NCBI GenBank assembly: GCA_036689235.1
Contig: CP144769.1
Coordinates: forward strand, 86,476-118,475
Length of the DNA stretch: 32,000 nt
Direction: 5' to 3'
From: Candidatus Saccharimonadota bacterium
Lineage (GTDB): Bacteria > Pseudomonadota > Gammaproteobacteria > Enterobacterales > Enterobacteriaceae
Positions 5,164 to 32,000 of this stretch are shown piece after piece; within the stretch, counting starts at the first letter, position 1, and the number at the start of each line of letters is the position of its first letter. The notes under the pieces were generated by a model. That model was not told the DNA's origin and made no database searches. It saw nothing but the letters and a program-made list of their open reading frames with translations. Position numbers and translations under genes: made by a program.

Positions 5164-6090
5164 ATGAAATATAAATCTGCTTTTTTAAATAATATTAAAA
5201 ATTATTTAAATATTAAAAAAAATGGAGTATATATAGATTGTACATTTGGTTCTGGTTATCATTCTTTTGAAATATTAAATTATTTAAATAAAAATGGTAA
5301 ATTATATTCTTTTGATTGTGATCCTATTTCTATTAAAAAAGGAAAAAAAAAAATTAATGATTATCGTATAAAATTAATAAATGATAATTTTTCTAATTTA
5401 AAATATTATATAAATTATTATAATTTATATAAAAAAATTAATGGTATAATTTTTGATTTGGGATTATCTAATATTCAGTTAGATAATTCTAATAGAGGAT
5501 TTTCATTTTTAAAAAATGGTCCATTAGATATGAGAATGAATCAAAATTTAGGTTTTCCTTTAAAAAAATGAATTAATAATGCTAAAGAAAAAGATATTTA
5601 TAATGTTATTAAAAAATATGGTCAAGATTATAATTCTAAGAAAATATCAAAGAATATATTTTTATATTGTAAAAAAAATAAATTATGTACTACTTATGAA
5701 TTATCTAAAATTATTAAATATTCTATAAAATCTTATAAAGATTATAAAAGTAAAGCTAGAGTTTTTCAAGCTTTTAGAATATTTATTAATAATGAATTAT
5801 CTAATTTAAAAAGTTCTTTATATGAATCTTATAAATTTTTATCTAAAAAAGGTAGATTAGTTGTAATTAGTTTTAATTCTTTAGAAGATAAAATAGTAAA
5901 AAAATTTATTAAAAAGAAATCAGATAGTAATTATAATTTATTAAATGGTATTCCTTTAACTTTTAATCAAATTAAAAATTTTAATCCTTCTAAATTAATA
6001 AATTTAGGTAAATTTAAACCTTCTAAAAAAGATATTTTTAATAATTCTAGAATAAGAAGTGCTATATTAAGAGTTGCTGAAAAAATTTAA
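5164..6090 (+). CDS. rsmH: 16S rRNA (cytosine1402-N4)-methyltransferase RsmH/MraW, 308 aa
   Basis: The sequence shows 'GVYIDCTFGSGYHSFEIL', 'GPLDMRMN', 'ARVFQAFRIFINNEL' and 'GRLVVISFNSLEDKIVKKF', with C-terminus 'NSRIRSAILRVAEKI'. There is one TGA at 5569. I retranslated frame 1 to the TAA at 6088-6090. Confidence 0.9.
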
Positions 6091-6115
6091 TTTTTTTTTT
6101 AATAAGGAATTTTAT

Positions 6116-7615
6116 TTGAAAAAAAAATTTTTAAAAGATATTTTATTTAAATATTTTAATAAAAATATTAGTTTTCCTAAAATTTTTATAAATAATATAA
6201 AAATTGATAGTAGATTAGTTAAGAAAAATGATTTATTTGTAGCTTTAAAAGGTTATAAAGAAAATGGTAAAAAATATATTTACAATGCTTTATTAAATGG
6301 TGCAATAGCTGTATTAACTTATTCTAAAATAAATAAAAATTATTTTTTTTTTAATTTAAAATATAAAATATTTATTTTTTTTATTTATAAATTAAATAAT
6401 TTTTTATCTGAAATTATAGGTAATTTTTATAATAATCCAAGTAAAAAAATGTTTTTATTTGGTGTTACTGGAACTAATGGTAAAACAACTGTCGTTAATT
6501 TTATTTCAAATTGGATTAATTTATTAAATTATAAAGTTTCTGTTTTAAGTACTTTAGGTAATGGAATATATAATAATTTACATTATTCATTAAATACTAC
6601 AAGTTCTGTTTTAGATACTCAATTAGAATTAAAAAATCATTATAATATGGGTGCTAAATTTTCTTGTATTGAAGTATCGTCACATTCATTAGTACAAAAT
6701 CGTATAAAATCATTATATTTTAATTGTGCTGTATTTACTAATTTAAGTTTAGATCATTTAGATTATCATAAAAATTTTAAAAATTATGAATTAGCTAAAC
6801 GTAAATTATTTTTTGATTTTAATATTAAAAATTTAATTATTAATATAGATGATCCTATAGGATTTAAATGATTTAAAGAATTAAAAAGTGAATATGTTAT
6901 TCCAGTAACATTTAATAAAAAAAATATTATTTATTTTAAATATAGATGATTATATGTTAAAAAAATTATTTATTTTGGTTTTTTAAAAAAAGTTTATTTT
7001 AAATCTTTTTTAGGAAATGGTATATTAAATTTTTTTTTCCCTGGTAATTTTAATATTATAAATGCTATATTAAGTTTTACATCTTTATTATCATTAAATT
7101 TTAATATTTATGATTTATTAAATGTAAGTAAATATTTAGATTTACCTGAAGGTAGAATGGAATTTTTTTATCGTAAAAAAAAACCTTTATTTATAGTTGA
7201 TTTTGCTCATACTCCTATAGCTTTAAAAAATATTTTAATAGAATGTAGAAAATATTGTTTAGGTAAATTATGATGTATTTTTGGTTGTACTGGTAATAGA
7301 GATAAAAGTAAAAGACCTTTAATGGGTTATATAGCTAAAAATTATTCTGATATAGTTATTATTACTAATGATGATTTATATTTTGAAGATGAAGATTTAA
7401 TATTAAAAGATATTAAATCAGGTATAAATAATTTTAATAATGTTTATATTATATTAAATAGAATTTTAGCAATTAAATTTTCTTTTATAAATTCAAATTA
7501 TAATGATGTTATATTAGTTGCAGGTAAAGGTCATGAAAAATATAGTTTTTTTTTAAATAATAAAATTAAATATTCTGATAGATATTTTATAAAAAAAATA
7601 TTAAGGAAATATTAA
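6116..7615 (+). CDS. murE: UDP-N-acetylmuramoyl-L-alanyl-D-glutamate--2,6-diaminopimelate ligase MurE (start uncertain: TTG 6116 or TTG 6074)
   Basis: Frame 2 is open from 6074 to TAA at 7613-7615, through TGAs at 6869, 6947 and 7271. TTG at 6116 is preceded by 'AAGGAA' at 6104-6109; TTG at 6074 would overlap rsmH. Motifs are 'GVTGTNGKTT', 'EVSSHSL', 'FTNLSLDHLDYH', 'DFAHTP' and 'WCIFGCTGNRDKSKRPLMG'. Confidence 0.88.
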
Positions 7616-8967
7616 TGAAAAATTTAAGTTTATTAAAAATATCAAATATTACTAATTCAATTTTATTAGGAAAAAATATATATATTAAAAATATTTCTAT
7701 TGATACAAGAAAAGATAATATAAGTAATTCTTTATTTATAGTTATTAGAGGTATTTACAAAAAAGAGTTTTTATGTTTTGAAGCTATTAAAAAAGGTGCT
7801 GTAGCTTTACTTATAGATTTTTATTTACCTATATTTAAAATACCTTTATTAATAACTAAAAATACTAAAATAGCTTTAGGAAAAATATCTTCTTGGTTAA
7901 GAAAAAAATGTAATTCTAAAGTAATTTGTATTACTGGTAGTACTGGTAAAACATCTACCAAAGAAATATTAGTTAATATTTTAAAACAATCAAATTCTAT
8001 ATTATATAATCTTTATAATTTTAATAATGAATTAGGTATACCTATTACATTATTAAATTTACAATATTTAAAATATAAATATATAATCTTAGAATTAGGT
8101 AGTAATTCAATTGGAGATATTGATTATTTATCTAAAATAACTTTACCTAATATTTCTTGTATTACTAATATTTCTATTTCTCATTTAAATGGTTTTAAAA
8201 AATTTAAAAATATTATAATAGATAAAGGTAAAATTTTTAAATATTTATTAAAAAATGGAATTGCTATTTTAAATATTAATTATTTTTTTTATAATTATTG
8301 AAAAAAATATTTGTTATATAAAAAAAAAATATTTTATAATATTTTAGATTTTTATAAATGTAATGTATTTTTAAATAATTTTAAATTTAGTATTCTTGGT
8401 ACTTATTTTACTATTAATACAATATATGGTAAACAAAAAATATTTACTAAATTATTAGGAATTCATAATATTACCAATATTTTATTATCTATTATTTTAT
8501 CTTTATATTTAGAAGTAAATATAAAAGATATAAAATTAGGTTTAGAAAGTTTATTACCAATTAAAGGTAGATTATATCCTATATATTTAAATAAAAAAAA
8601 AATAATATTAGATGATTCTTATAATTGTAATCCTAGATCATTATATTTTAGTATAAATTTTTTACAAAAATGTAGTGGTTATAAATTATTGGTTATTTCT
8701 GATATGTTTGATTTAAGTTATATGTCTTTATATTGTCATAAATATATTGGAACTTTAATAAGAAAAAAATTTTTTATTGATAAAGTATTAAGTATAGGTA
8801 AATATAGTTATTATATTAGTAAATATAGTAAGATAGGTGAACATTTTAATAATTTTAATAAATTATTAATAAGAATTAAATATATATTAAAATGTAATAA
8901 TGAAATTATTATTTTAATTAAAGGTTCTAATATATTTAATATGAATAAAATAATTAATTTTTTATAG
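7615..8967 (+). CDS. murF: UDP-N-acetylmuramoyl-tripeptide--D-alanyl-D-alanine ligase MurF, 450 aa
   Basis: The ATG at 7615 overlaps the murE stop (TAATG). Motifs are 'ISIDTRK', 'ITGSTGKTSTKE', 'ILELGSNSIGDIDYL' and 'DDSYNCNP'. There is one TGA at 8299 and the stop is TAG at 8965-8967. Confidence 0.86.
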
Positions 8968-8974
8968 GTAAAAT

Positions 8975-10021
8975 ATGTTTTATACTACTTTTTTAAAATT
9001 ATTTTTATTTGATTTTTTTTTACCTTTTTTTTTATCTTTTTTAATATCTTTTGATTTAATAAAATATTTTATATTTATTTTTAATAATTTAAATTTTTTT
9101 CAAAATATACGTAATTTTTTACCTAATAATCATATTTTAAAAAATAAAATTCCCACTATGGGTGGTTTAATAATTTTAATTTGTTTTTTTTTAATTTTTT
9201 TTTTATTTTTTTATAAGATTTATAATTTTGATATATTTATATTATTTTTATTTTTTGTTTTAAATGCATTAATAGGATTATTAGATGATTGTATGAAATG
9301 TTTTATATTAAATTCTAGTGGTTTATCAATATTTAATAAATATATTTTGCAATCTTTTGTATCTATTTTATATATTTTTTATTTATATAAAAGAAATATT
9401 TTTTTAGATTCATTCTTTAATTTTTATTATTTAAAATTTAATATTAATTATATTTATTTTTTTTTATTATATTTTATTTTAATAGGAATATCTAATTCTG
9501 TTAATATTACTGATGGTTTAGATGGTTTAGTTGTTTTTCCATTAATTTTAAATTTCATATTTTTATTGATTGTATGTATTAATAAATATTTATTTATAAT
9601 TAATTTTTTTTTAGTTAATTATGAATATTTAATATTCATTAAATATTTAATTATATCTATTAGTATTATTATAGGTATATTATTTTCTTTTTTATATTAT
9701 AATTTTAATCCTGCTAAAATTTTTTTAGGAGATGTAGGTTCTTTGTCTTTAGGATTTATTTTATCGATTATTTTTATTTTATTAAAGAAAAAAAAATTTA
9801 TATTAATAAATAGTTTTATTTTTATAATTGAAATTATTTCAGTTATGTTACAAATTTTTTCATTTTATTTTTTAAATAAAAGAATATTTTTAATGGCTCC
9901 TTTACATCATCATTATGAATTATTAAATTATAAAGAAAAAAATATAGTATTTATTTTTTGATTTTTTTCATTTATTTTATTTATAATTTCTTTATTTTTA
10001 TATTTTAAAATTTATGTATAA
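8975..10021 (+). CDS. mraY: Phospho-N-acetylmuramoyl-pentapeptide transferase MraY, 348 aa
   Basis: This is a polytopic hydrophobic protein with 'KNKIPTMGGLIIL', 'GLLDDCMK', 'NSVNITDGLDGL', 'FLGDVGSLSLG' and 'MAPLHHHYEL'. There is one TGA at 9959 and the stop is TAA at 10019-10021. Confidence 0.9.
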
Positions 10022-11330
10022 TTATAATAACAAAAATATAGTTGTTTTAGGTGCTGGATTAACTGGTTTATCTTGTATAAACTATTTTATTTCATTAAAT
10101 ATATATCCTAAATTAATGGATTTTAATTATATTAATAATATTTCAGTACCTAATGGTATAGAATATTGTTTTGGATATTTAAATGAAAATTGATTATTAA
10201 ATTCTGATTTAATAATTATTAGTCCTGGAATATCTTCTTATCATTATTTAATTATTAAAGCAAAAAAAATTGGTATAGAAATTATTAATGATATAGAAAT
10301 ATTTTGTAGAATAAATAAAAAACCTATTATATCTATAACTGGAACTAATGGTAAAAGTACTGTTGTATCTTTATTATTTAATATATTTAAATCTTATAAT
10401 ATTAATGTATCTTTAGGTGGTAATATTGGTATTCCTGTATTAAATTTATTAAATAATAATAGTGATTTATATATATTAGAAATTTCTAGTTTTCAATTAG
10501 AATATACATATTCTTTAAAGTCTATTTGTTCTTGTATTTTAAATATTACTTATGATCATATGGATAGATATGTATCTTTTCAAGATTATTTTTTTTGTAA
10601 ATTTAAAATTTTTAATAATTCTAAATATTGTATATTAAATTTTAATGATAAAGAAATACTTTTTAAAAATATTTTAGATAGAAAAGTTATTACATTTGGT
10701 TATTATATAGGTGATTATTATATTAATGAAATAAATAACAATTTATATTTATCTAAAAATAATTATAATTATATAAATATAAAATATATTTATTTAAAAG
10801 GTATTTTTAATTATTTAAATATGTTAGTTGTTATTTGTATTTCAGAAATTTTTAAAATTCCTAAAAAAATTATTTTAAATAATTTAATTAATTTTAAAGG
10901 ATTATCTCATAGATTTTGTATAATTAAAAATAAAAGTAATATTTTAATTATTAATGATTCTAAATCTACTAATATAGATAGTACATTATCTTCTTTAAAT
11001 AATTTACCTAATATAAAAGGTAAAATATGATTATTAATGGGTGGTGATAATAAAAATGTTAATTTTAAAAAATTTTTAAAACCTAATTTATTATTTTATA
11101 AAAATTTATTTATTTGTTGTTATGGAAAAAGTAAGAATATAATATTTGATTTAATTCCTAATATTTCTTTTAAATTTAATTTTTTATGTGATATTATAAA
11201 ATTTATTTCAATTAATGTTAAATATAATGATATAATCTTATTTTCACCAGGATGTTCTAGTTTAGATCAATTTAATAATTATAAAGAAAGAGGTATAGAA
11301 TTTATTAAATTAATTAATAAATATTTTTAA
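10014..11330 (+). CDS. murD: UDP-N-acetylmuramoylalanine--D-glutamate ligase MurD, 438 aa
   Basis: The ATG at 10014 overlaps the mraY end by 8 nt. The sequence shows 'NIVVLGAGLTGLSCINYF', 'ISPGIS', 'ITGTNGKSTV', 'LEISSFQLE' and 'NITYDHMDRY'. TGAs are at 10188 and 11028. I retranslated frame 3 with no TAA/TAG. Confidence 0.88.
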
Positions 11331-11350
11331 TAAATTTTTATATTTTATTT

Positions 11351-12397
11351 ATGAAAATAAATCGTGTAATGATTATTACTGGTGGTACTGGTGGTCATAT
11401 ATTTCCTGGTTTAGTTATAGCTAAATATTTAAAAAAAAATGGATGTTTAATAAAATGAATAGGTAGTAAAAATAGATTAGAATCTATTTTAGTTCCTAAA
11501 TTTAATATAAATATTGAATGTATATATATTCCTTATTTTAAAAATTATATTAATTTATTTTATTATATTAAATCTATATATTTAATAATAAAAAAAATAA
11601 AGTTTTGGAAACCTGATTTAATTTTAGGTTTTGGTGGATACATATCTTTTTGTGGTATTATTTCTGCATGATTATGTAATATTAATAATATAATACATGA
11701 ACAAAATTCTATTTTAGGTTTTTCAAATAAAATATTATATTATTTTTCTACTAAAAAATTACAAGCTTTTCCTAATACTTTTAATTCTAATATTGCTATT
11801 ACTGTTGGTAATCCTATTAGAAAAGAAATATTATCTATTAAACCTCCTAATATTAGATTAATTAATCGAAGAGGTAAAATTAATATATTAATTATTGGAG
11901 GTAGTCAAGGTTCTGAAATTATAAATAATGTAATTTTTAAAATTATAAAAATTTTAAATATGAATAAATATTTATTTTTTCATCAAGTTGGTTTTTTAGG
12001 TTATAAAAAAAATATAAAATTAATAAATAGTATAAATAATATTAATAATTATAGATGTGTTAGTTTTATATATAATATACATAAATTTTATAGTTGAGCT
12101 GATTTAATAATATGTAGATCTGGTGCATTAACAATAAGTGAAATTAGTAATATAGGATTAGCTTCTATTTTAATACCTTTAGTTAATAAAGATAATCATC
12201 AATATTATAATGCTAAATTTTTATCTAAAAATAATTCTGCTATTATAATAAATGAGAATATATTAAATGAATTTTTATTAGCTAATATAATATTAAAATT
12301 AAATAGAAAAAAATTATTTAATATGTCTAATTTATCATATTTAAATAGAATAAAAAATCCTAATAAAAAATTTATTAAAGAAATATATAATATTTAA
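11351..12397 (+). CDS. murG: Undecaprenyldiphospho-muramoylpentapeptide beta-N-acetylglucosaminyltransferase MurG, 348 aa (absent from the standard-code ORF track)
   Basis: I retranslated frame 2 from ATG 11351 to TAA 12395-12397. It is open apart from TGAs at 11456, 11669 and 12104. The sequence shows '[20 protein letters not shown]', 'WIGSKNRLE', '[10 protein letters not shown]' and '[28 protein letters not shown]'. Confidence 0.88.
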
Positions 12398-12429
12398 ATA
12401 TATAATAATTAATATTATGAGATAATTAA

Positions 12430-13872
12430 GTGAGTAATAATAATTTGTTTTTTAATATAAATAAAAAAAGATTTGTTATACATTTTATTGGTATTGGTGG
12501 TGTTGGAATGTCATCAATAGCAGAATATATGTTATTATCTGGTTATAATGTAACTGGATCTGATATAAATTTTAATTATAGAATAAAATATTTATCTTCT
12601 TTAGGAATTAAAATATATAATAATCATTGTAAAAATAATATTTTAAAATGTAATTTAATTGTTTATTCTTCTGCTATTAATTTATTAAATGATGAAATTT
12701 TATTTGCAAAGAATAATAATATTCCTATAATATCTAGAATTGAAATGTTATATGAATTAACTAAATATAATTATTTAATTACTGTTATTGGTAGTCATGG
12801 TAAAACTACTACTACTTCTTTAATTTTTGATTTATTTTTAAATTATGATATGAAAATTAATTGTATAAATGGAGGTAATATAAAATCTATAAATTCTTAT
12901 ATTTATTTAAGTAATAGTAAATATTTTTTAATTGAATTAGATGAAAGTGATAATTTATTTACTTTATTAAAACCTACTATAGTTATTTTAACTAATATAG
13001 ATTATGATCACTTAAATAATTATAATAATAATATAAATAATTTAATTAATTCTTTTATAAATTATATAAATAAAATTCCATTTTATGGTTATCTTATAGC
13101 TTGTTTTGATGATAAAAATATTATATCTATTTTAAATAAAAATATTTTTAATTGTAAAATAATTACTTATGGTTTTAATAAAAAATCAAATTTTTTAATT
13201 AATAATTATAAACAAAAGAAAAATTTTAGTAATTTTGATTTATATATTAACAAAAAAAAAAAATATAATTTAAGTGTAAATATGTTTGGTAAACATAATA
13301 TTTCGAATTTAATTAGTTCTATAATTTTATTAAATCAATTTTATAAGTTAGATTTATCAAAACTTCAAGAAAAAATATATTTTTTAAAAGGTGTTAGTAG
13401 AAGATCTGAAATTATAGGTGAATTTTCTTTTTTTTATAAAAAACGTTTTTATAATAATATATTATTTATTTCTGATTATGGACATCATCCTACTGAAATA
13501 TATTATAATATAAATTCTATATATAAATCTTGAAATAGAAGAATAGTTATGGTTTTTCAACCTCATAGATTTAGTAGAACTAAATTATTATTAAATAATT
13601 TTGTAAATGTTTTAATTAAAGTTGATATTTTATTATTATTAAATATTTATTATTCTTATGAAGATAATTCTATATATAATATAAGTAGTAATAAATTATT
13701 TTCATTAATGTATGATTTATATAATTATAAAAATTGTATTTTATTAAATAAAAATTGTGATATTTTTAAATATTTGTTAAATATTATTATTGATAAAGAT
13801 ATTGTTTTATTTCAAGGTGCTGGAAAAATTGATTTACTTTTATATAGTTTTATTTGTAATTATGTAAAATAA
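12430..13872 (+). CDS. murC: UDP-N-acetylmuramate--L-alanine ligase MurC, 480 aa, GTG start
   Basis: Starts at GTG 12430. The sequence shows 'IHFIGIGGVGMSSIAEYML', 'GSHGKTTTTS', 'NIDYDHL', 'DYGHHPTEI' and 'FQPHRFSRT'. There is one TGA at 13531, and both track fragments are in frame 1. Confidence 0.9.
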
Positions 13873-13894
13873 AATTAATTTAATTATATTTATT

Positions 13895-14821
13895 ATGAAA
13901 TCTATAAATAATGTTGCTATATTTTTTGGTGGAACTTCTAATGAAAGAAGTATTTCTATAAAATCTGGTTATTGTATTTTTAAATGTTTATTAAAGAAAA
14001 ATATTAATATTTATCTTATTGATATAAAATATTTTTGTATAAATAGTTTTTTAAAAAAAAAAATAGATAAAGTTTTTATAGCATTACATGGTAAAATAGG
14101 AGAAGATGGAGTTATACAAGGTTTTTTAGATTTTTTAAAAATTCCATATACTGGAAGTGGTCTTTTTACTTCATCTTTATGTATTAATAAATATAATACT
14201 AAAAATTTTTTAAATAATTTTAAAATAAAAATTTTACCTCATGTATATATTAAAAAAATATATATTAATAATAATATTAATAAATTTTTTAAATTATATA
14301 AAAAAATTTTATTAAAATTAAATATTCCTTTTATAGTAAAACCTAATATTTTTGGATCAAGTATAGGATTAAATATTATTAATAATTTTAATGATTTTAA
14401 AAATTATTTTAGTAAATTTAATATTATTAATTTTAATAATTTTATTTTTGAAAAATATATTTTTGGTGATGAATATACTGTTAGTATTTTAAATAATAAA
14501 ATTTTATGTCCTATTAAAATTAAATATAAAAATAAAATTTTTAATTTTAATTTAAAATATGATTATAATAATTTTTTTTTTTCAATAAATATTAATAATA
14601 ATATTAAAAGAAAATTAATTAATATTTCTAAAAAAATATGAAATATTTTAAATTGTAAAGGTTGTATAAGAATAGATTATATAATTGATAAATTTGAAAA
14701 TATTTGATTTTTAGAGGTTAATACTATACCTGGTATGACTAATAAAAGTTTAGTTACTATTTGTGCTAAATATTCTAATATTGAATATTCTAAATTAATT
14801 TTAAATATATTATATAATTAA
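13895..14821 (+). CDS. ddl: D-alanine--D-alanine ligase, 308 aa
   Basis: The sequence shows 'VAIFFGGTSNERSISIKSG', 'ALHGKIGEDGVIQGFLDFLKIPYTGSG' and 'WFLEVNTIPGMTNKSLV'. TGAs are at 14639 and 14706 and the stop is TAA at 14819-14821. Confidence 0.88.
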
Positions 14822-29512: not shown

Positions 29513-30508
29513 ATGACTATTAGAGTAGGTATAAATGGTTTTAGTAAAATTGGTAGATTAATATTTTATAATTCTCAATATAGAAAAAATATTAAAGTAG
29601 TAGTTATTAATGATTTAATTGATATTAATGATGTTATTCGTTTACTAAAAGTTGATTTTATTAATGATAAAAAATTTAATAATAGTATAAAAATTATAGA
29701 TAATAATTTATTTATAAATAATAATAAAATTTATTTTACTTCTTATAGTAAACCTAATGATATTAAATGAAGTAAATTTAATGTTGATATTGTAATAGAA
29801 TCTACTGGTTTATTTTTAACTAAAAATTTATCTTATGGACATATTTTATCTGGAGCTAAATATGTAATTATGACTAGTTTACCTAATGATGATACACCTA
29901 TATTTGTAATGGGAATTAATAATCATAATTATAATGGTCAAAATATAATATCTAATGCTTCTCCTATTATTAATTGTTTAGCTCCTATAGTTAAAGTTAT
30001 TAATGATAATTTTGAAATTACTGAATCTTTTATAACTAATATATATTCATCTATTTATAATAAAAAAATAACTAGTAATCATTCATTAAAGAATTTATAT
30101 ACTTATAAAAGTATTGTTCCTGTATTTGATAAATCTATTAATTTTTTAAATTATATAATTCCAGATTTAAAAAATAAAATTATTGGTATGTCTTTAAAAA
30201 TATCATTTTTAAATATTTCACTTATAGATTTTACTGCTAAATTAAATTCTAATGTTACTTATGATGAAATATGTTCTTGTATGGAAGAAGCTTCTAAAAC
30301 TTATTTACGTGGAATTTTAGGTGTTATTTATGATAATAATTTAATTTTTAATAATTTATATAATAAAAAATTAGTTTCTATTTTTGATGCTAAATCTGTT
30401 TTAATATTAAATAATAATTTTATTAAATTTATATCATGATATAATAATGAAATAGCTTATTCTGAAAAAATTTTAGATTTATTATCTTATATATATTATT
30501 ATAATTAA
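29513..30508 (+). CDS. gapA: Glyceraldehyde-3-phosphate dehydrogenase homologue (GapA-like), 331 aa, intact ORF but catalytic Cys and His substituted
   Basis: The sequence shows 'MTIRVGINGFSKIGRLIF', 'VVVINDL', 'IVIESTGLFLT' and the C-terminal 'SWYNNEIAYSEKILDLLSYI' (W encoded by TGA at 30437). The active-site box reads 'SNASPIINCLAP' (29950-29985) instead of 'SNASCTTNCLAP'. The 'TTVHA' segment reads 'TNIYS'. Confidence 0.85.
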
Positions 30509-30514
30509 ATTTAT

Positions 30515-30559
30515 ATACTAATTTGAATTATTTATTTTTTTTAAATAATTCATTAGTAT
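30515..30559. terminator. Stem-loop between convergent gapA and the protelomerase-like gene; candidate bidirectional rho-independent terminator
   Basis: 30515-30522 pairs with 30552-30559 (8 bp) and 30525-30533 pairs with 30543-30551 (9 bp), with a 2-nt bulge between them. The loop is A+T8. The arms contain exactly two G/C positions each, and these pair with one another (C30518-G30556, G30525-C30551). Confidence 0.5.
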
Positions 30560-30562
30560 TTA

Positions 30563-32000
30563 TTATTCTATTATTTTTTTTTTAATTATTTTATATCTTC
30601 CATTTATTTTTTTTTGATTAATATATTTTGATATGTATTTTATATATTTTTTTATTAATATGGTATTGAATCCAAATTTTCTTAAAATATAATTATTTAT
30701 TAATGTATTATCATTATTAATAAGAATTTTTTTTGTTATTTCATGTATTCTATATGCATTTTTTCTTTTTATTATTTTATGTATTTTTTTATCTAGATTT
30801 AATATTTTTTTAAATCTTTTATTTTTTTTTATTTTGGGTTTTCATTTTTTTTCAAAATTTTTTAATTTAAATTGTTTATAATATATTTGACTATTTATAT
30901 TTTTATGTCCTAATATTTTATAAAAAAACATGTCTTCATCGTATTTTTTTCATTTTTTATCTTTTTTAAATCATTTTTTAAAACATATACGACTATATAT
31001 AGATCTAGTATCTTTATAAGTTCTTTTTTTATTTTGAAAAAATAATTTTGATCATCTATTAAATGGATTTGATAAATAATTACTTATTTGATAATTTTTT
31101 GATAAATATTTATTTTTTCTTTTATTTATCATATATATTATTTTTTTTAGTATTTTACTTTTTCTTAATTTTTTTATTTTTTTTAAAAATAATTTTGAAT
31201 TACATAATAAATATATTTTATATTTTTTTTTTTTATTATTATTTTTTGCTTGTCCTTTAAATTGTATTTTATTTTTTTTATTTATTAATTTAAATTTTCC
31301 TGTTTTAATTATTTCTATCATTCTTCTTCCAGATACTGCAGATAATGCAAATGATAATATTGATATTTTTTTTATATTATTAATTTTAAAATTATTATAT
31401 AATATATTATATATTTCTTTTATATAATTTTTATAATTTACTATAATTGTATTACTTTTTTTTTTTTTTATTTTATCATAAGATTTTTTTTTTGAAATTA
31501 AAAGTTTTCTTTTTTCTACTTTTAAATAAAATAATATTTCATGATTTATTTTTATGTTTTTTATTTTTTTCTTTAATTTTTTACCTTGTTGAATTTTATT
31601 TATTATATATTTATTTGAACTATATCATTTTTGATTTATAAAATTTTTTAATTCTTTTTTTCATTCTGGAAAAATTTTTATTGAATTTTTTATTATTTTT
31701 AAATTATTTTTTGTTGAATCTATTTTTATTTTATTAATTTTTTTTATTAAATTATTAATTAATTCTAATTTTAAATTTAATTTTCTTAATTTTATTTTTA
31801 TAATATTTATATTATTTATTTTATCTATAAAATTTATTTCTTTTTTATAATATGGAAAATTTTTTTTAATATAATTTATATTTTTTTTAAAACTATGATG
31901 TTTAATATTAATAAATTGTTTTCTTGATCTTGATATATATGTTATATAACTATTTATTGATAATTTTTTTTTCTTTAATTTTTTTTTAAAAATTAATGCT
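30563..32000 (-). CDS. Protelomerase / telomere resolvase (TelN/TelK-like tyrosine-recombinase-fold enzyme); 5' end lies beyond the window (about 479 codons visible)
   Basis: I retranslated the minus frame from 32000 down to TAA at 30563-30565. It is open with 6 TGA=Trp. Visible motifs are '...NSYITYISRSRKQFINIKHHSFKKNINYIKKNFPYY', 'IFPEWKKEL', 'NKIQQGKKL..KINHEILFYL', 'VNYKNYIKEIYNIL', 'FALSAVSGRRMIEIIKTGKF', 'IQFKGQAKNNNKKKKYKIYLLCNSKLF', 'SNPFNRWSKLFF', 'RTYKDTRSIYSRICF', 'KKWKKYDEDMFFYKILGHKNINSQIYYKQFKLKNF' and 'YRIHEITKKIL'. These parallel, in order, my recollection of N15 TelN: 'NAYMSRARKRF..LHHSFDKNINKL', 'VNHEVLYHL', 'AAVSGRRMIEIM', 'FSGQAKK', 'FNPWVKSFF', 'VYKDSRAIYARIAY' and 'DEDVFFMEILGHDDENTQLHYKQFKL'. 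Confidence 0.8.

What the first reader, a model, noticed from the sequence alone, without database searches (positions are those of the whole stretch)
30563..32000. TelN/TelK-type protelomerase gene sitting among core housekeeping genes of a tiny code-4 genome: possible hairpin-telomere (linear replicon) system
The minus-strand ORF carries the ordered catalytic set of a tyrosine-recombinase-fold telomere resolvase. These are Arg in 'AVSGRRMIEI', Lys in 'FKGQAK', Arg in 'YKDTRSIY', His in 'ILGH', and the putative Tyr nucleophile in 'QIYYKQFKL'. It also has the long N-terminal region ('SRSRKQF..KHHSFKKNINY', 'INHEILFYL') that distinguishes protelomerases from Xer/integrase enzymes. As far as I recall the N15 TelN sequence, the blocks are collinear and in places near-identical ('SGRRMIEI', 'DED.FF..ILGH......YKQFKL'). 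The gene is not a fresh acquisition. Its base composition is indistinguishable from its neighbours, and TGA encodes Trp at positions where TelN also has Trp ('NPW'/'NRW', 'PRW'/'KKW', 'RTW'/'KKW', 'PDW'/'PEW'). It also shares a G/C-compensated terminator hairpin with gapA. An intact, host-adapted protelomerase in a genome this reduced argues for selection. The simplest function is resolving replicated hairpin telomeres of a linear chromosome or linear plasmid. I am not aware of this being described for such reduced symbionts. No phage genes are visible on the 3' side; the 5' side is outside the window.
Basis: partly seen in the sequence, partly recalled or inferred. Interest (0 to 1): 0.92.

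Follow-up and report, generated by a model that had tools for sequence, protein, structure and literature searches.

The report
Protelomerase and hairpin telomere in Stammera
The gene is an intact phage-type protelomerase in the tiny genome of the tortoise-beetle symbiont Stammera, sitting next to its palindromic target at a place where many independent assemblies stop or fold back, so this symbiont's chromosome is most likely linear with hairpin ends, which no paper in the searchable library mentions.

Summary
Window 30563-32000 (minus strand, UGA=Trp) encodes residues 37-514 of a 514-aa TelK/TelN-type protelomerase. It matches the TelK crystal-structure sequence at E=2.4e-86 and three TelK Pfam domains, and has no Xer/integrase hit. 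All five catalytic residues are invariant.

The window comes from Candidatus Stammera capleta (GCA_015142155.1, contig JADDOK010000002.1). That 181,818-bp contig is centred exactly on a 56-bp palindrome 29 nt upstream of the tel start codon, 165 nt past the window end. The two arms mirror each other perfectly over the 14.3 kb I could check.

The site core (TATAC-N4-GTATA) lies at the same offset from the dyad as in N15 and phiKO2 telRL. In 17 Stammera assemblies examined, contigs fold back through this site, stop within a few nt of its centre, or break before reaching it. None joins the two arms. GC skew flips there, and the locus lies at 0.47-0.49 of records rotated to oriC.

Tel is intact in at least 13 divergent strains, with dN/dS 0.27-0.45 in close pairs. 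Some strains carry tel plus cspE on both ends (terminal inverted repeats); others keep one copy or a pseudogene.

Best reading: a linear chromosome with hairpin telomeres kept by a domesticated phage protelomerase. Physical proof is still lacking, and no held paper reports this.

The parts
30563..32000 (-). tel: protelomerase CDS, residues 37-514 plus the stop codon (30563-30565). The gene runs off the window. Outside the window, in window-equivalent coordinates: start codon at 32105-32107; 56-bp telomere palindrome at 32137-32192; dyad at 32164|32165 (L008 6364-6419, dyad 6391|6392).
31544..31900 (-). TelK_muzzle domain (aa 70-188).
   Evidence: Pfam PF20849, 57.7 bits against a cut-off of 27.
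30872..31450 (-). ResT/TelK catalytic domain (aa 220-412).
   Evidence: Pfam PF16684, 84 bits against a cut-off of 27.
30623..30823 (-). TelK_stirrup domain (aa 429-495).
   Evidence: Pfam PF20818, 31.6 bits against a cut-off of 27.
31322..31324 (-). Codon for Arg262, the second R of SGRR (= TelK R275).
   Evidence: invariant in all 17 aligned sequences.
31244..31246 (-). Codon for Lys288 in GQAK (= TelK K300).
31004..31006 (-). Codon for Arg368 in KDTR (= TelK R383).
30905..30907 (-). Codon for His401 in ILGH (= TelK H416).
30878..30880 (-). Codon for Tyr410 in YYKQFKL, the predicted nucleophile (= TelK/TelN Y425).
   Evidence: Y425 is named as the catalytic Tyr of TelN in bioRxiv 10.1101/2025.06.15.659773.
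30515..30558 (.). Hairpin between the convergent genes gapA and tel (TACTAAT..GAATTATTTA / TAAATAATTC..ATTAGTA), probably a bidirectional terminator. The same element sits near the ends of both chromosome arms in other strains.
   Evidence: -14.9 kcal/mol, z=-4.6, 0 of 200 shuffles fold as well; conserved in L002, L003, L004, L007, L012, L013, L014, L016, L018.

Best explanation
The window is the last 32 kb of one arm of the chromosome of Candidatus Stammera capleta, and that chromosome is a linear duplex with covalently closed hairpin ends.

The gene encodes a domesticated N15/phiKO2-type protelomerase (Tel). Replication starts at an oriC in the middle of the chromosome and runs to both ends. 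Copying around each hairpin turns it into a 56-bp inverted-repeat junction: outer box TGTAACATAT, an 8-nt spacer, inner box TATAC (TATAT in one clade), then a 4-nt centre.

By analogy with TelK/TelN, a Tel dimer binds this palindrome. Tyr410 of each subunit cuts one strand a few bases either side of the dyad and forms a 3'-phosphotyrosyl link. Each free 5'-OH then attacks the link on the opposite strand, which regenerates two hairpin ends without any cofactor.

Shown here: the gene, its domains and its catalytic residues; purifying selection; the palindrome next to the gene and its homology with phage telRL; contig ends and fold-backs at the dyad; GC-skew reversal there; terminal inverted repeats.

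Inferred: the hairpin ends themselves, enzyme activity and the cleavage positions.
For: Enzyme.
- TelK match at E=2.4e-86, three TelK-specific Pfam domains, and nothing else at E<=1.
- The catalytic pentad is invariant.
- The protein aligns to TelK residues 2-531. TelN lacking 540-631 is reported to keep full resolution activity.

Host adaptation and selection.
- 13% G+C; 6 TGA=Trp codons, 5 of them at TelK Trp positions.
- 13 full-length orthologues at 58-85% identity.
- dN/dS is 0.27-0.45 in close pairs, like dnaQ. Meanwhile the window's own gapA has lost its catalytic Cys and His.

Target site.
- A perfect 56-bp palindrome lies 29 nt from the ATG. N15 and phiKO2 telRL lie 164-165 nt from their genes.
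- TATAC..GTATA occupies the same positions relative to the dyad as in N15/phiKO2.
- The 10-mer ATATGTTACA occurs only at these sites in all Stammera loci fetched.

Topology.
- The window's contig (181,818 bp) has the dyad at 90,909|90,910. It is a perfect mirror over the 14,347 bp per arm that could be checked.
- Fold-backs that extend into each end's own flank: L004 (2 ends), L006 (3.4 kb), L007, L012, L013 (2 ends), L014 (2 ends), L021.
- Contigs ending at or within about 5 nt of the dyad: L005/L024, L015, L016/L017, L018, L022. Three of these are from the independent Logan assembler.
- No contig joins the two arms through one site.
- Every one of the 11 CP1447xx/CP1448xx records fetched has an NNNNN gap at this locus. 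Those records were MEGAHIT contigs rotated to oriC by GC skew.
- The locus sits at 0.47-0.49 of record length.
- GC skew changes sign there in 11 of 11 loci.

Terminal inverted repeats.
- cspE is present on both arms in L005 and L015, and as a pseudogene in L006.
- A 2,040-bp Logan contig runs from the hairpin through tel. Its last 419 bp are 100% identical, in inverted orientation, to the end of the other arm.
- A tel pseudogene lacking the catalytic domain sits on the second arm of L002.
Against: - No physical evidence was available: all topology evidence comes from assemblies, not reads or gels.
- The depositors call several records 'complete genome'. They treat the chromosome as one that can be rotated to oriC, and do not mention linearity.
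- For the window's own strain, only one chromosome end was seen.
- The tel gene of CP043987.1 (L007) is split by a frameshift. This could be a sequencing error or a real loss.
- The inner box is TATAT rather than TATAC in one clade, so the match to phage telO is not absolute.
- The Pfam TelK_N domain is not detected.
Confidence: 0.85

Rival explanations
1. The chromosome is circular and carries a telRL-like palindrome. The fold-backs and contig breaks are assembler artefacts caused by that palindrome. Tel has no role in chromosome topology, either because it is a relic or because it acts elsewhere, for example on the small plasmids.
For: Palindromes do disturb assemblers. The authors reported single chromosomal sequences and set oriC on them. 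The plasmids could not be examined: the PLSDB search with the site found nothing.
Against: - A 56-bp palindrome cannot by itself produce a 2 x 90.9 kb mirror contig, or make each site symmetric 9-43 nt into its own flank.
- Each genome shows two sites with different chromosomal flanks, never one site joining the two flanks.
- Three assemblers or pipelines stop at the same nucleotide positions.
- An active protelomerase with its site on the chromosome would cut it in any case. Tel keeps all catalytic residues under purifying selection.
Confidence: 0.07
2. The chromosome exists in both forms. It is circular for part of the life cycle, with a fused telRL, and is linearised by Tel only under some conditions, as N15 switches between a circular intermediate and a linear prophage.
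For: CP043989.1 (L013) has the two sites abutting without a gap. Telomere resolvases can in principle run the reverse, fusion reaction (general knowledge).
Against: The L013 join consists of two complete fold-back palindromes placed side by side, not a single telRL. No assembly contains a single site flanked by the two different arms.
Confidence: 0.06
3. The gene belongs to an N15-like linear phage-plasmid, or to a recent prophage, that was mis-binned or recently inserted. It is not a host function.
For: The closest homologues outside Stammera are protelomerases of enterobacterial phage-plasmids: N15, phiKO2 and PY54.
Against: - No phage or plasmid genes lie nearby. The neighbours are gapA, rnhA, dnaQ, asnS, cspE, ruvC and aspS.
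- The gene has 13% G+C and host-code UGA=Trp.
- It is found at the same chromosomal locus in strains down to 58% protein identity.
Confidence: 0.01

Closest known systems
N15 TelN/telRL and phiKO2 TelK/telRL (protelomerases of enterobacterial linear phage-plasmids)
   Same: - Same muzzle, catalytic and stirrup architecture.
- 32-33% identity over about 510 aa, with identical R-K-R-H-Y residues.
- The target is a 50-56-bp palindrome just upstream of the gene, with TATAC..GTATA at the same offset from the dyad.
   Different: - Chromosomal and host-adapted (code 4, 13% G+C), with no other phage genes.
- Lacks the C-terminal ~110 aa, and TelK_N falls below the Pfam threshold.
- The central 4 nt are ATAT or AATT instead of GCGC, and the outer boxes differ.
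- The site lies 29 nt from the ATG, against 164-165 nt.
- It would maintain the host's only chromosome, not a prophage.
Engineered Escherichia coli with a linear chromosome (Cui et al. 2007: N15 tos/telRL inserted in the terminus region plus TelN)
   Same: A TelN-type enzyme, one site placed opposite oriC, and two roughly equal replichores ending in hairpins. In E. coli such cells are viable and no longer need dif/XerCD (as summarised in bioRxiv 10.1101/2025.06.15.659773).
   Different: Stammera would be a natural, long-standing version in a 0.21-0.31 Mb genome, with terminal inverted repeats carrying tel. Whether Stammera has lost dif/XerCD was not tested here.
Agrobacterium tumefaciens C58 linear chromid with TelA
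   Same: A cellular (non-phage) replicon with hairpin telomeres made by a resident telomere resolvase that is inherited vertically in a clade.
   Different: TelA is a different, smaller branch of the family without the TelK muzzle, and it serves a secondary replicon. In Stammera the enzyme is TelK/TelN-type and the replicon is the main chromosome.
Borrelia linear chromosome and plasmids with ResT
   Same: A main chromosome with hairpin telomeres, a central origin, replicated-telomere junctions resolved by a tyrosine enzyme of the same catalytic-domain family (PF16684), and exchange or decay of terminal segments.
   Different: ResT lacks the muzzle and stirrup domains and is encoded on a plasmid. 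The telomere sequences are unrelated.

Membership tests
TelK/TelN-type protelomerase | ResT/TelK catalytic domain (PF16684) above the gathering score | tested here: met
   84 bits against a cut-off of 27, aa 220-412.
TelK/TelN-type protelomerase | TelK-specific muzzle (PF20849) and stirrup (PF20818) domains | tested here: met
   57.7 and 31.6 bits against a cut-off of 27. Collinear alignment to the TelK structure sequence at E=2.4e-86.
TelK/TelN-type protelomerase | Catalytic residues R275, K300, R383, H416 and Y425 (TelK numbering, recalled from memory; Y425 confirmed) | tested here: met
   R262, K288, R368, H401 and Y410 are invariant in 14 Stammera and 3 phage sequences.
TelK/TelN-type protelomerase | TelK_N N-terminal domain (PF22853) | tested here: inconclusive
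   No Pfam hit at E<=0.01, whereas TelN scores 160 bits. However, 69 residues precede the muzzle domain, and phrog_5272 aligns from aa 3.
TelK/TelN-type protelomerase | C-terminal domain (TelK 532-640, TelN 540-631) | tested here: not met
   The protein ends at TelK position 531. The domain is reported dispensable for resolution and end protection, so this is not disqualifying.
TelK/TelN-type protelomerase | Palindromic target next to the gene, with a core related to telO | tested here: met
   A 56-bp perfect palindrome 29 nt from the ATG, with TATAC-N4-GTATA in register with N15/phiKO2.
TelK/TelN-type protelomerase | Cleaving-joining activity that yields hairpin ends | not testable with these tools
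   Needs recombinant protein and a synthetic site.
Bacterial linear replicon with hairpin telomeres | Each end reads as an inverted repeat of its own flank, and nothing bridges the two ends | tested here: met
   At contig level only: 11 fold-back instances, 5 strains where contigs stop at the dyad, and no bridging contig. Read-level data were not available.
Bacterial linear replicon with hairpin telomeres | Physical linearity and covalently closed ends (PFGE, exonuclease resistance, snap-back) | not testable with these tools
   Experimental.
Bacterial linear replicon with hairpin telomeres | Ends coincide with the replication termini of an internal origin | tested here: met
   GC skew flips from + to - at the junction in 11 of 11 loci. 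The locus lies at 0.47-0.49 of records rotated to oriC.
Xer / phage-integrase tyrosine recombinases (PF00589) | Phage_integrase catalytic domain profile match | tested here: not met
   No such family appears at E<=1.
N15-like phage-plasmid (prophage) | Linked phage or plasmid genes (repA, sopAB, repressor, structural genes) | tested here: not met
   Only housekeeping genes lie within 6-10 kb on either arm.

The most novel reading that the evidence does not exclude
Stammera's sole chromosome has been a hairpin-ended linear replicon since before its strains diverged, a symbiosis dated to the Paleocene by its describers. It is kept by a captured phage protelomerase placed at the former replication terminus. 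The ends began as terminal inverted repeats carrying cspE and tel. Decay of one or the other copy then moves tel from one chromosome end to the other between strains. Linearity may also have made chromosome-dimer resolution and termination functions dispensable, which would have helped extreme genome reduction.
Probability: 0.35. Interest if true: 0.9.

Novelty: new member of a known kind. Interest (0 to 1): 0.8.

Why it matters
The tiny genomes of obligate insect symbionts are treated as circles, and Stammera records are deposited and analysed that way. A linear, hairpin-ended chromosome of 0.21-0.31 Mb would be the smallest known, as far as I am aware.

It would also be, to my knowledge, the first main chromosome kept by an N15/TelK-type phage enzyme. 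That makes it a natural counterpart of the engineered linear E. coli.

It would show that a gene captured from a mobile element can become a core maintenance function. Here it survives tens of millions of years of genome erosion, while a glycolytic gene next to it (gapA) decays.

There are practical consequences. The deposited assemblies contain artefacts at this locus: 5-N joins, mirror contigs, duplicated palindromes, a mis-oriented fragment and a chimeric end. The two ends are also evolutionarily mobile.

The claim can be tested directly with existing reads and simple bench assays.

Tried and rejected
I worked around this by using dnaQ, which has no TGA, to find the window's contig.
- A self-BLAST at low identity was swamped by AT-rich noise. 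I repeated it at >=78% identity.
- PLSDB search with the 64-nt telomere site found no match, so the plasmids remain unexamined.
- NCBIfam has no model for this protein. This probably explains why the sources give the gene no name.
- The sigma-70 promoter scan upstream of tel gave 24 hits against 26 expected, which is uninformative at 13% G+C. I make no promoter claim.
- The Cell 2017 and Current Biology 2020 Stammera genome papers are not held, so I cannot exclude that they mention linearity.
- Ten full-text searches and four in-paper searches found no link between Stammera and protelomerase, telomere, hairpin or linear chromosome.
- Look-up of P0022, the 252-aa cluster representative on a 239,864-bp contig, failed.
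- Considered and rejected: Xer/integrase (no profile hit), prophage contamination (housekeeping context), and a chance palindrome. Outside the telomere sites, the longest palindrome found in the window has 16-nt arms with up to one mismatch allowed.
Full report
**1. What is in the window**

The window is 10-24% G+C throughout. Between 30563 and 31999 the minus strand is open only if TGA is read as Trp: 6 TGA codons and no TGG.

The 478-residue product matches three Pfam families above their curated cut-offs: ResT-TelK_cat, TelK_muzzle and TelK_stirrup. It matches nothing else at E<=1, so there is no Phage_integrase/Xer hit.

Against the sequences of all solved structures, the only hit is the phiKO2 protelomerase TelK (2v6e). 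The E-value is 2.4e-86, collinear over query 4-463 and TelK 72-535. PHROG 5272 matches at 5e-111, and NCBIfam has no model.

Five of the six TGA codons align with Trp in TelK and the sixth with Phe. The gene is therefore read in the host's code.

**2. Whose genome it is, and what lies just beyond the window**

A scan of species-representative genomes found relatives only in Candidatus Stammera capleta, the pectin-digesting symbiont of tortoise beetles.

dnaQ is one of the few window genes without TGA, so I used its product to find the window's own contig. It is GCA_015142155.1, JADDOK010000002.1, 181,818 bp. Locus L008 maps to the window as window = L008 + 25773.

The complete gene is 514 aa. 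Twenty-nine nt upstream of its ATG lies a perfect 56-bp palindrome:

TATTGTAACATATATAATAAATATACAT|ATGTATATTTATTATATATGTTACAATA

Its dyad is at L008 6391|6392, which is window-equivalent 32164|32165.

That dyad corresponds to record position 90,909|90,910, exactly half of 181,818. The two arms are perfect reverse complements over all 14,347 bp per arm that I could check. Both the length symmetry and the checked stretch indicate that the deposited contig is one chromosome arm read out to this site and back along the other strand.

**3. The site is a phage-type tel site**

I fetched the annotated telRL sites of N15 and phiKO2, and the PY54 palindrome, and aligned them on the dyad.

| Source | Sequence around the dyad |
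|---|---|
| N15 / phiKO2 | CCCATTATACGC\|GCGTATAATGG |
| Stammera (window strain) | AATAAATATACAT\|ATGTATATTTATT |
| Stammera, divergent strain (L006) | TATAATTATACAA\|TTGTATAATTATA |

TATAC/GTATA occupy the same positions relative to the dyad. Only the central four bases have drifted, from GCGC to ATAT or AATT.

As in the phages, the site lies immediately upstream of the gene: 164-165 nt in N15 and phiKO2, 29 nt here.

Across Stammera strains the outer box TGTAACATAT is invariant. The 8-nt spacer and the centre vary, and the inner box is TATAT in one clade. The 10-mer ATATGTTACA occurs nowhere else in the Stammera DNA fetched.

**4. How assemblies behave at this site**

I examined 23 Stammera loci (L001-L008 and L012-L024) plus the window itself. 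They come from 17 Stammera assemblies, and four of them (L017, L020, L022, L024) are Logan assemblies of public runs.

(a) Fold-backs. The palindrome extends past the core into the reverse complement of that end's own flank, in some cases including the CAT of the tel ATG. These are L004 (two ends), L006 (3,436 bp, with the whole tel gene duplicated in mirror), L007 (at position 1 of the record), L008, L012, L013 (two ends abutting), L014 (two ends) and L021.

(b) Contigs that stop at or within about 5 nt of the dyad. These are L005/L023/L024, L015, L016/L017, L018 and L022.

(c) No telomere recovered. L001 is fused to about 850 nt of GC-rich foreign DNA. L002, L003 and L019/L020 are the others.

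(d) In no case does one site join the gapA arm to the cspE/ruvC arm.

All 11 CP1447xx/CP1448xx records fetched carry an NNNNN gap exactly here. Their methods say that MEGAHIT contigs were rotated to an oriC found by GC skew. So the gap marks the original contig ends.

The locus lies at 0.47-0.49 of record length. GC skew changes from positive to negative across it in 11 of 11 loci. In the window, the cumulative skew rises toward the site.

A hairpin end also explains how short reads can fold back. A Y-adaptor ligated to the single open end of a hairpin-terminated fragment gives one amplifiable strand that reads flank-tip-reverse flank (inference).

**5. The gene is maintained**

The word-indexed search found 13 full-length orthologues (493-524 aa, 58-85% identity) on contigs of 212-314 kb, plus one fragment.

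An exhaustive scan of 1.84 billion cluster representatives found only 187 relatives. Nothing falls between the Stammera group (>=55% identity for the full-length representative) and phage-type proteins (<=38% among full-length hits).

R262, K288, R368, H401 and Y410 are invariant in all 14 Stammera proteins and in TelN, TelK and PY54 Tel.

Nei-Gojobori dN/dS for tel is 0.27-0.45 between the closer strains and below 0.8 in all pairs. This is similar to dnaQ (0.19-0.54).

In contrast, the neighbouring gapA of this strain gives 0.75-1.06. It has also lost its catalytic Cys (to Pro) and His (to Tyr).

Stammera Tel aligns to TelK 2-531 of 640. TelN lacking residues 540-631 is reported to retain full resolution activity and hairpin protection. 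The missing C-terminal domain therefore does not argue against function.

**6. Terminal inverted repeats and end-swapping**

Tel is always transcribed away from the site, but the arm that carries it differs between strains.

| Arrangement | Loci |
|---|---|
| gapA-> <-tel \| (tel on the gapA arm) | window, L012, L016-L018, L019-L022, L002, L003 |
| cspE-> <-tel \| (tel on the other arm) | L001, L004, L007, L013, L014 |

Three strains show both arrangements.
- L005/L023 and L015 have cspE on both arms.
- L006 has an intact cspE on one arm and a decayed one on the other, with the tel-downstream spacer 93.7% identical between arms.
- In the CP144825 strain, a 2,040-bp Logan contig runs from the half-site through tel. 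Its last 419 bp are 100% identical, in inverted orientation, to the end of the other arm, and the contig stops where the arms diverge. This is the expected picture of a collapsed terminal inverted repeat.

L002 carries a full tel on one arm. On the other arm it has a tel pseudogene that has lost the catalytic domain.

L004's tel-less end keeps the palindrome plus a sequence resembling the tel leader and start codon.

A conserved terminator-like hairpin sits near the end of both arms; in the window it is at 30515-30558.

The simplest account is an ancestral terminal inverted repeat, [cspE-> <-tel hairpin], at both ends, followed by loss of one copy or the other. This is inference.

**7. Mechanism, rivals, novelty**

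The best explanation (confidence 0.85) is a linear chromosome with hairpin telomeres resolved by Tel, as in N15. The site lies opposite oriC, as in the engineered linear E. coli of Cui et al. 2007, where dif/XerCD became dispensable (as summarised).

The rivals are a circular chromosome with assembly artefacts, a mixture of circular and linear forms, and a mis-binned phage-plasmid. The symmetry of each site's own flanks, the two distinct ends per genome, the housekeeping context and the selection on tel all disfavour them.

No paper in the searchable library links Stammera to protelomerase, telomeres, hairpins or linearity. The two main subscription-journal genome papers could not be read.

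The kind of system is known: Borrelia ResT, Agrobacterium TelA and the N15 family. I therefore rate this as a new member of a known kind, but in a very unexpected host and role.

Noticed in passing
window 29513-30508 (+), gapA: The ORF is intact, but the catalytic Cys is Pro (SNASPIINC instead of SNASCTTNC) and the active-site His is Tyr. GFGRIGR has become GFSKIGR, and there is a 4-aa deletion. dN/dS against other strains is 0.75-1.06. GAPDH therefore looks to be decaying in this strain. CP043989.1 (L013) also has Cys replaced by Ser.
   Followed up: partly
L001 1-850 (CP043985.1, last ~850 nt of the record): GC-rich, non-Stammera sequence is fused to a 5'-truncated tel gene at the contig end. 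It looks like host or retroelement DNA, so the end of a record labelled 'complete genome' is chimeric.
   Followed up: no
L007 126-1606 (CP043987.1): The tel gene is split into two reading frames (126-986 and 1070-1606). This is either a homopolymer sequencing error or a real pseudogene. If real, that strain would need another tel copy.
   Followed up: no
L003 9948-11668 (CP144815.1): A fragment holding tel(aa 230-505)-> <-gapA(aa 92-335) lies inverted between rnhA and cspE, next to the NNNNN gap. It is probably a mis-oriented piece placed during scaffolding.
   Followed up: no
L012 5790-5922 (CP144768.1): About five tandem copies of a 29-mer (TATTATTCAATTTGTTAAATTTTATTTTA) lie at the end of the cspE arm, directly before the gap. 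A subtelomeric tandem repeat is unusual in so reduced a genome.
   Followed up: no
L002 8900-9912 (CP144817.1): A second, diverged tel copy (82% nt identity to the other copy) keeps residues ~29-247 and the last ~70 codons but has lost the catalytic domain. It is a pseudogene on the arm opposite the intact gene.
   Followed up: partly
window 31554-31850 (+): A 98-codon ORF lies antisense inside tel and is rich in Phe and Ile. It is most likely a by-product of the extreme A+T content, not a gene.
   Followed up: no
window 5164-14821 (+): Going by their order and leading residues, the ORFs here look like a complete cell-wall synthesis cluster (rsmH, murE, murF, mraY, murD, murG, murC, ddl), retained in this ~0.25 Mb genome. 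secA, dnaX, htpG, recA and alaS follow. The mur/ddl assignments were not checked against profiles. recA is relevant because homologous recombination would create dimers in a circular chromosome.
   Followed up: no
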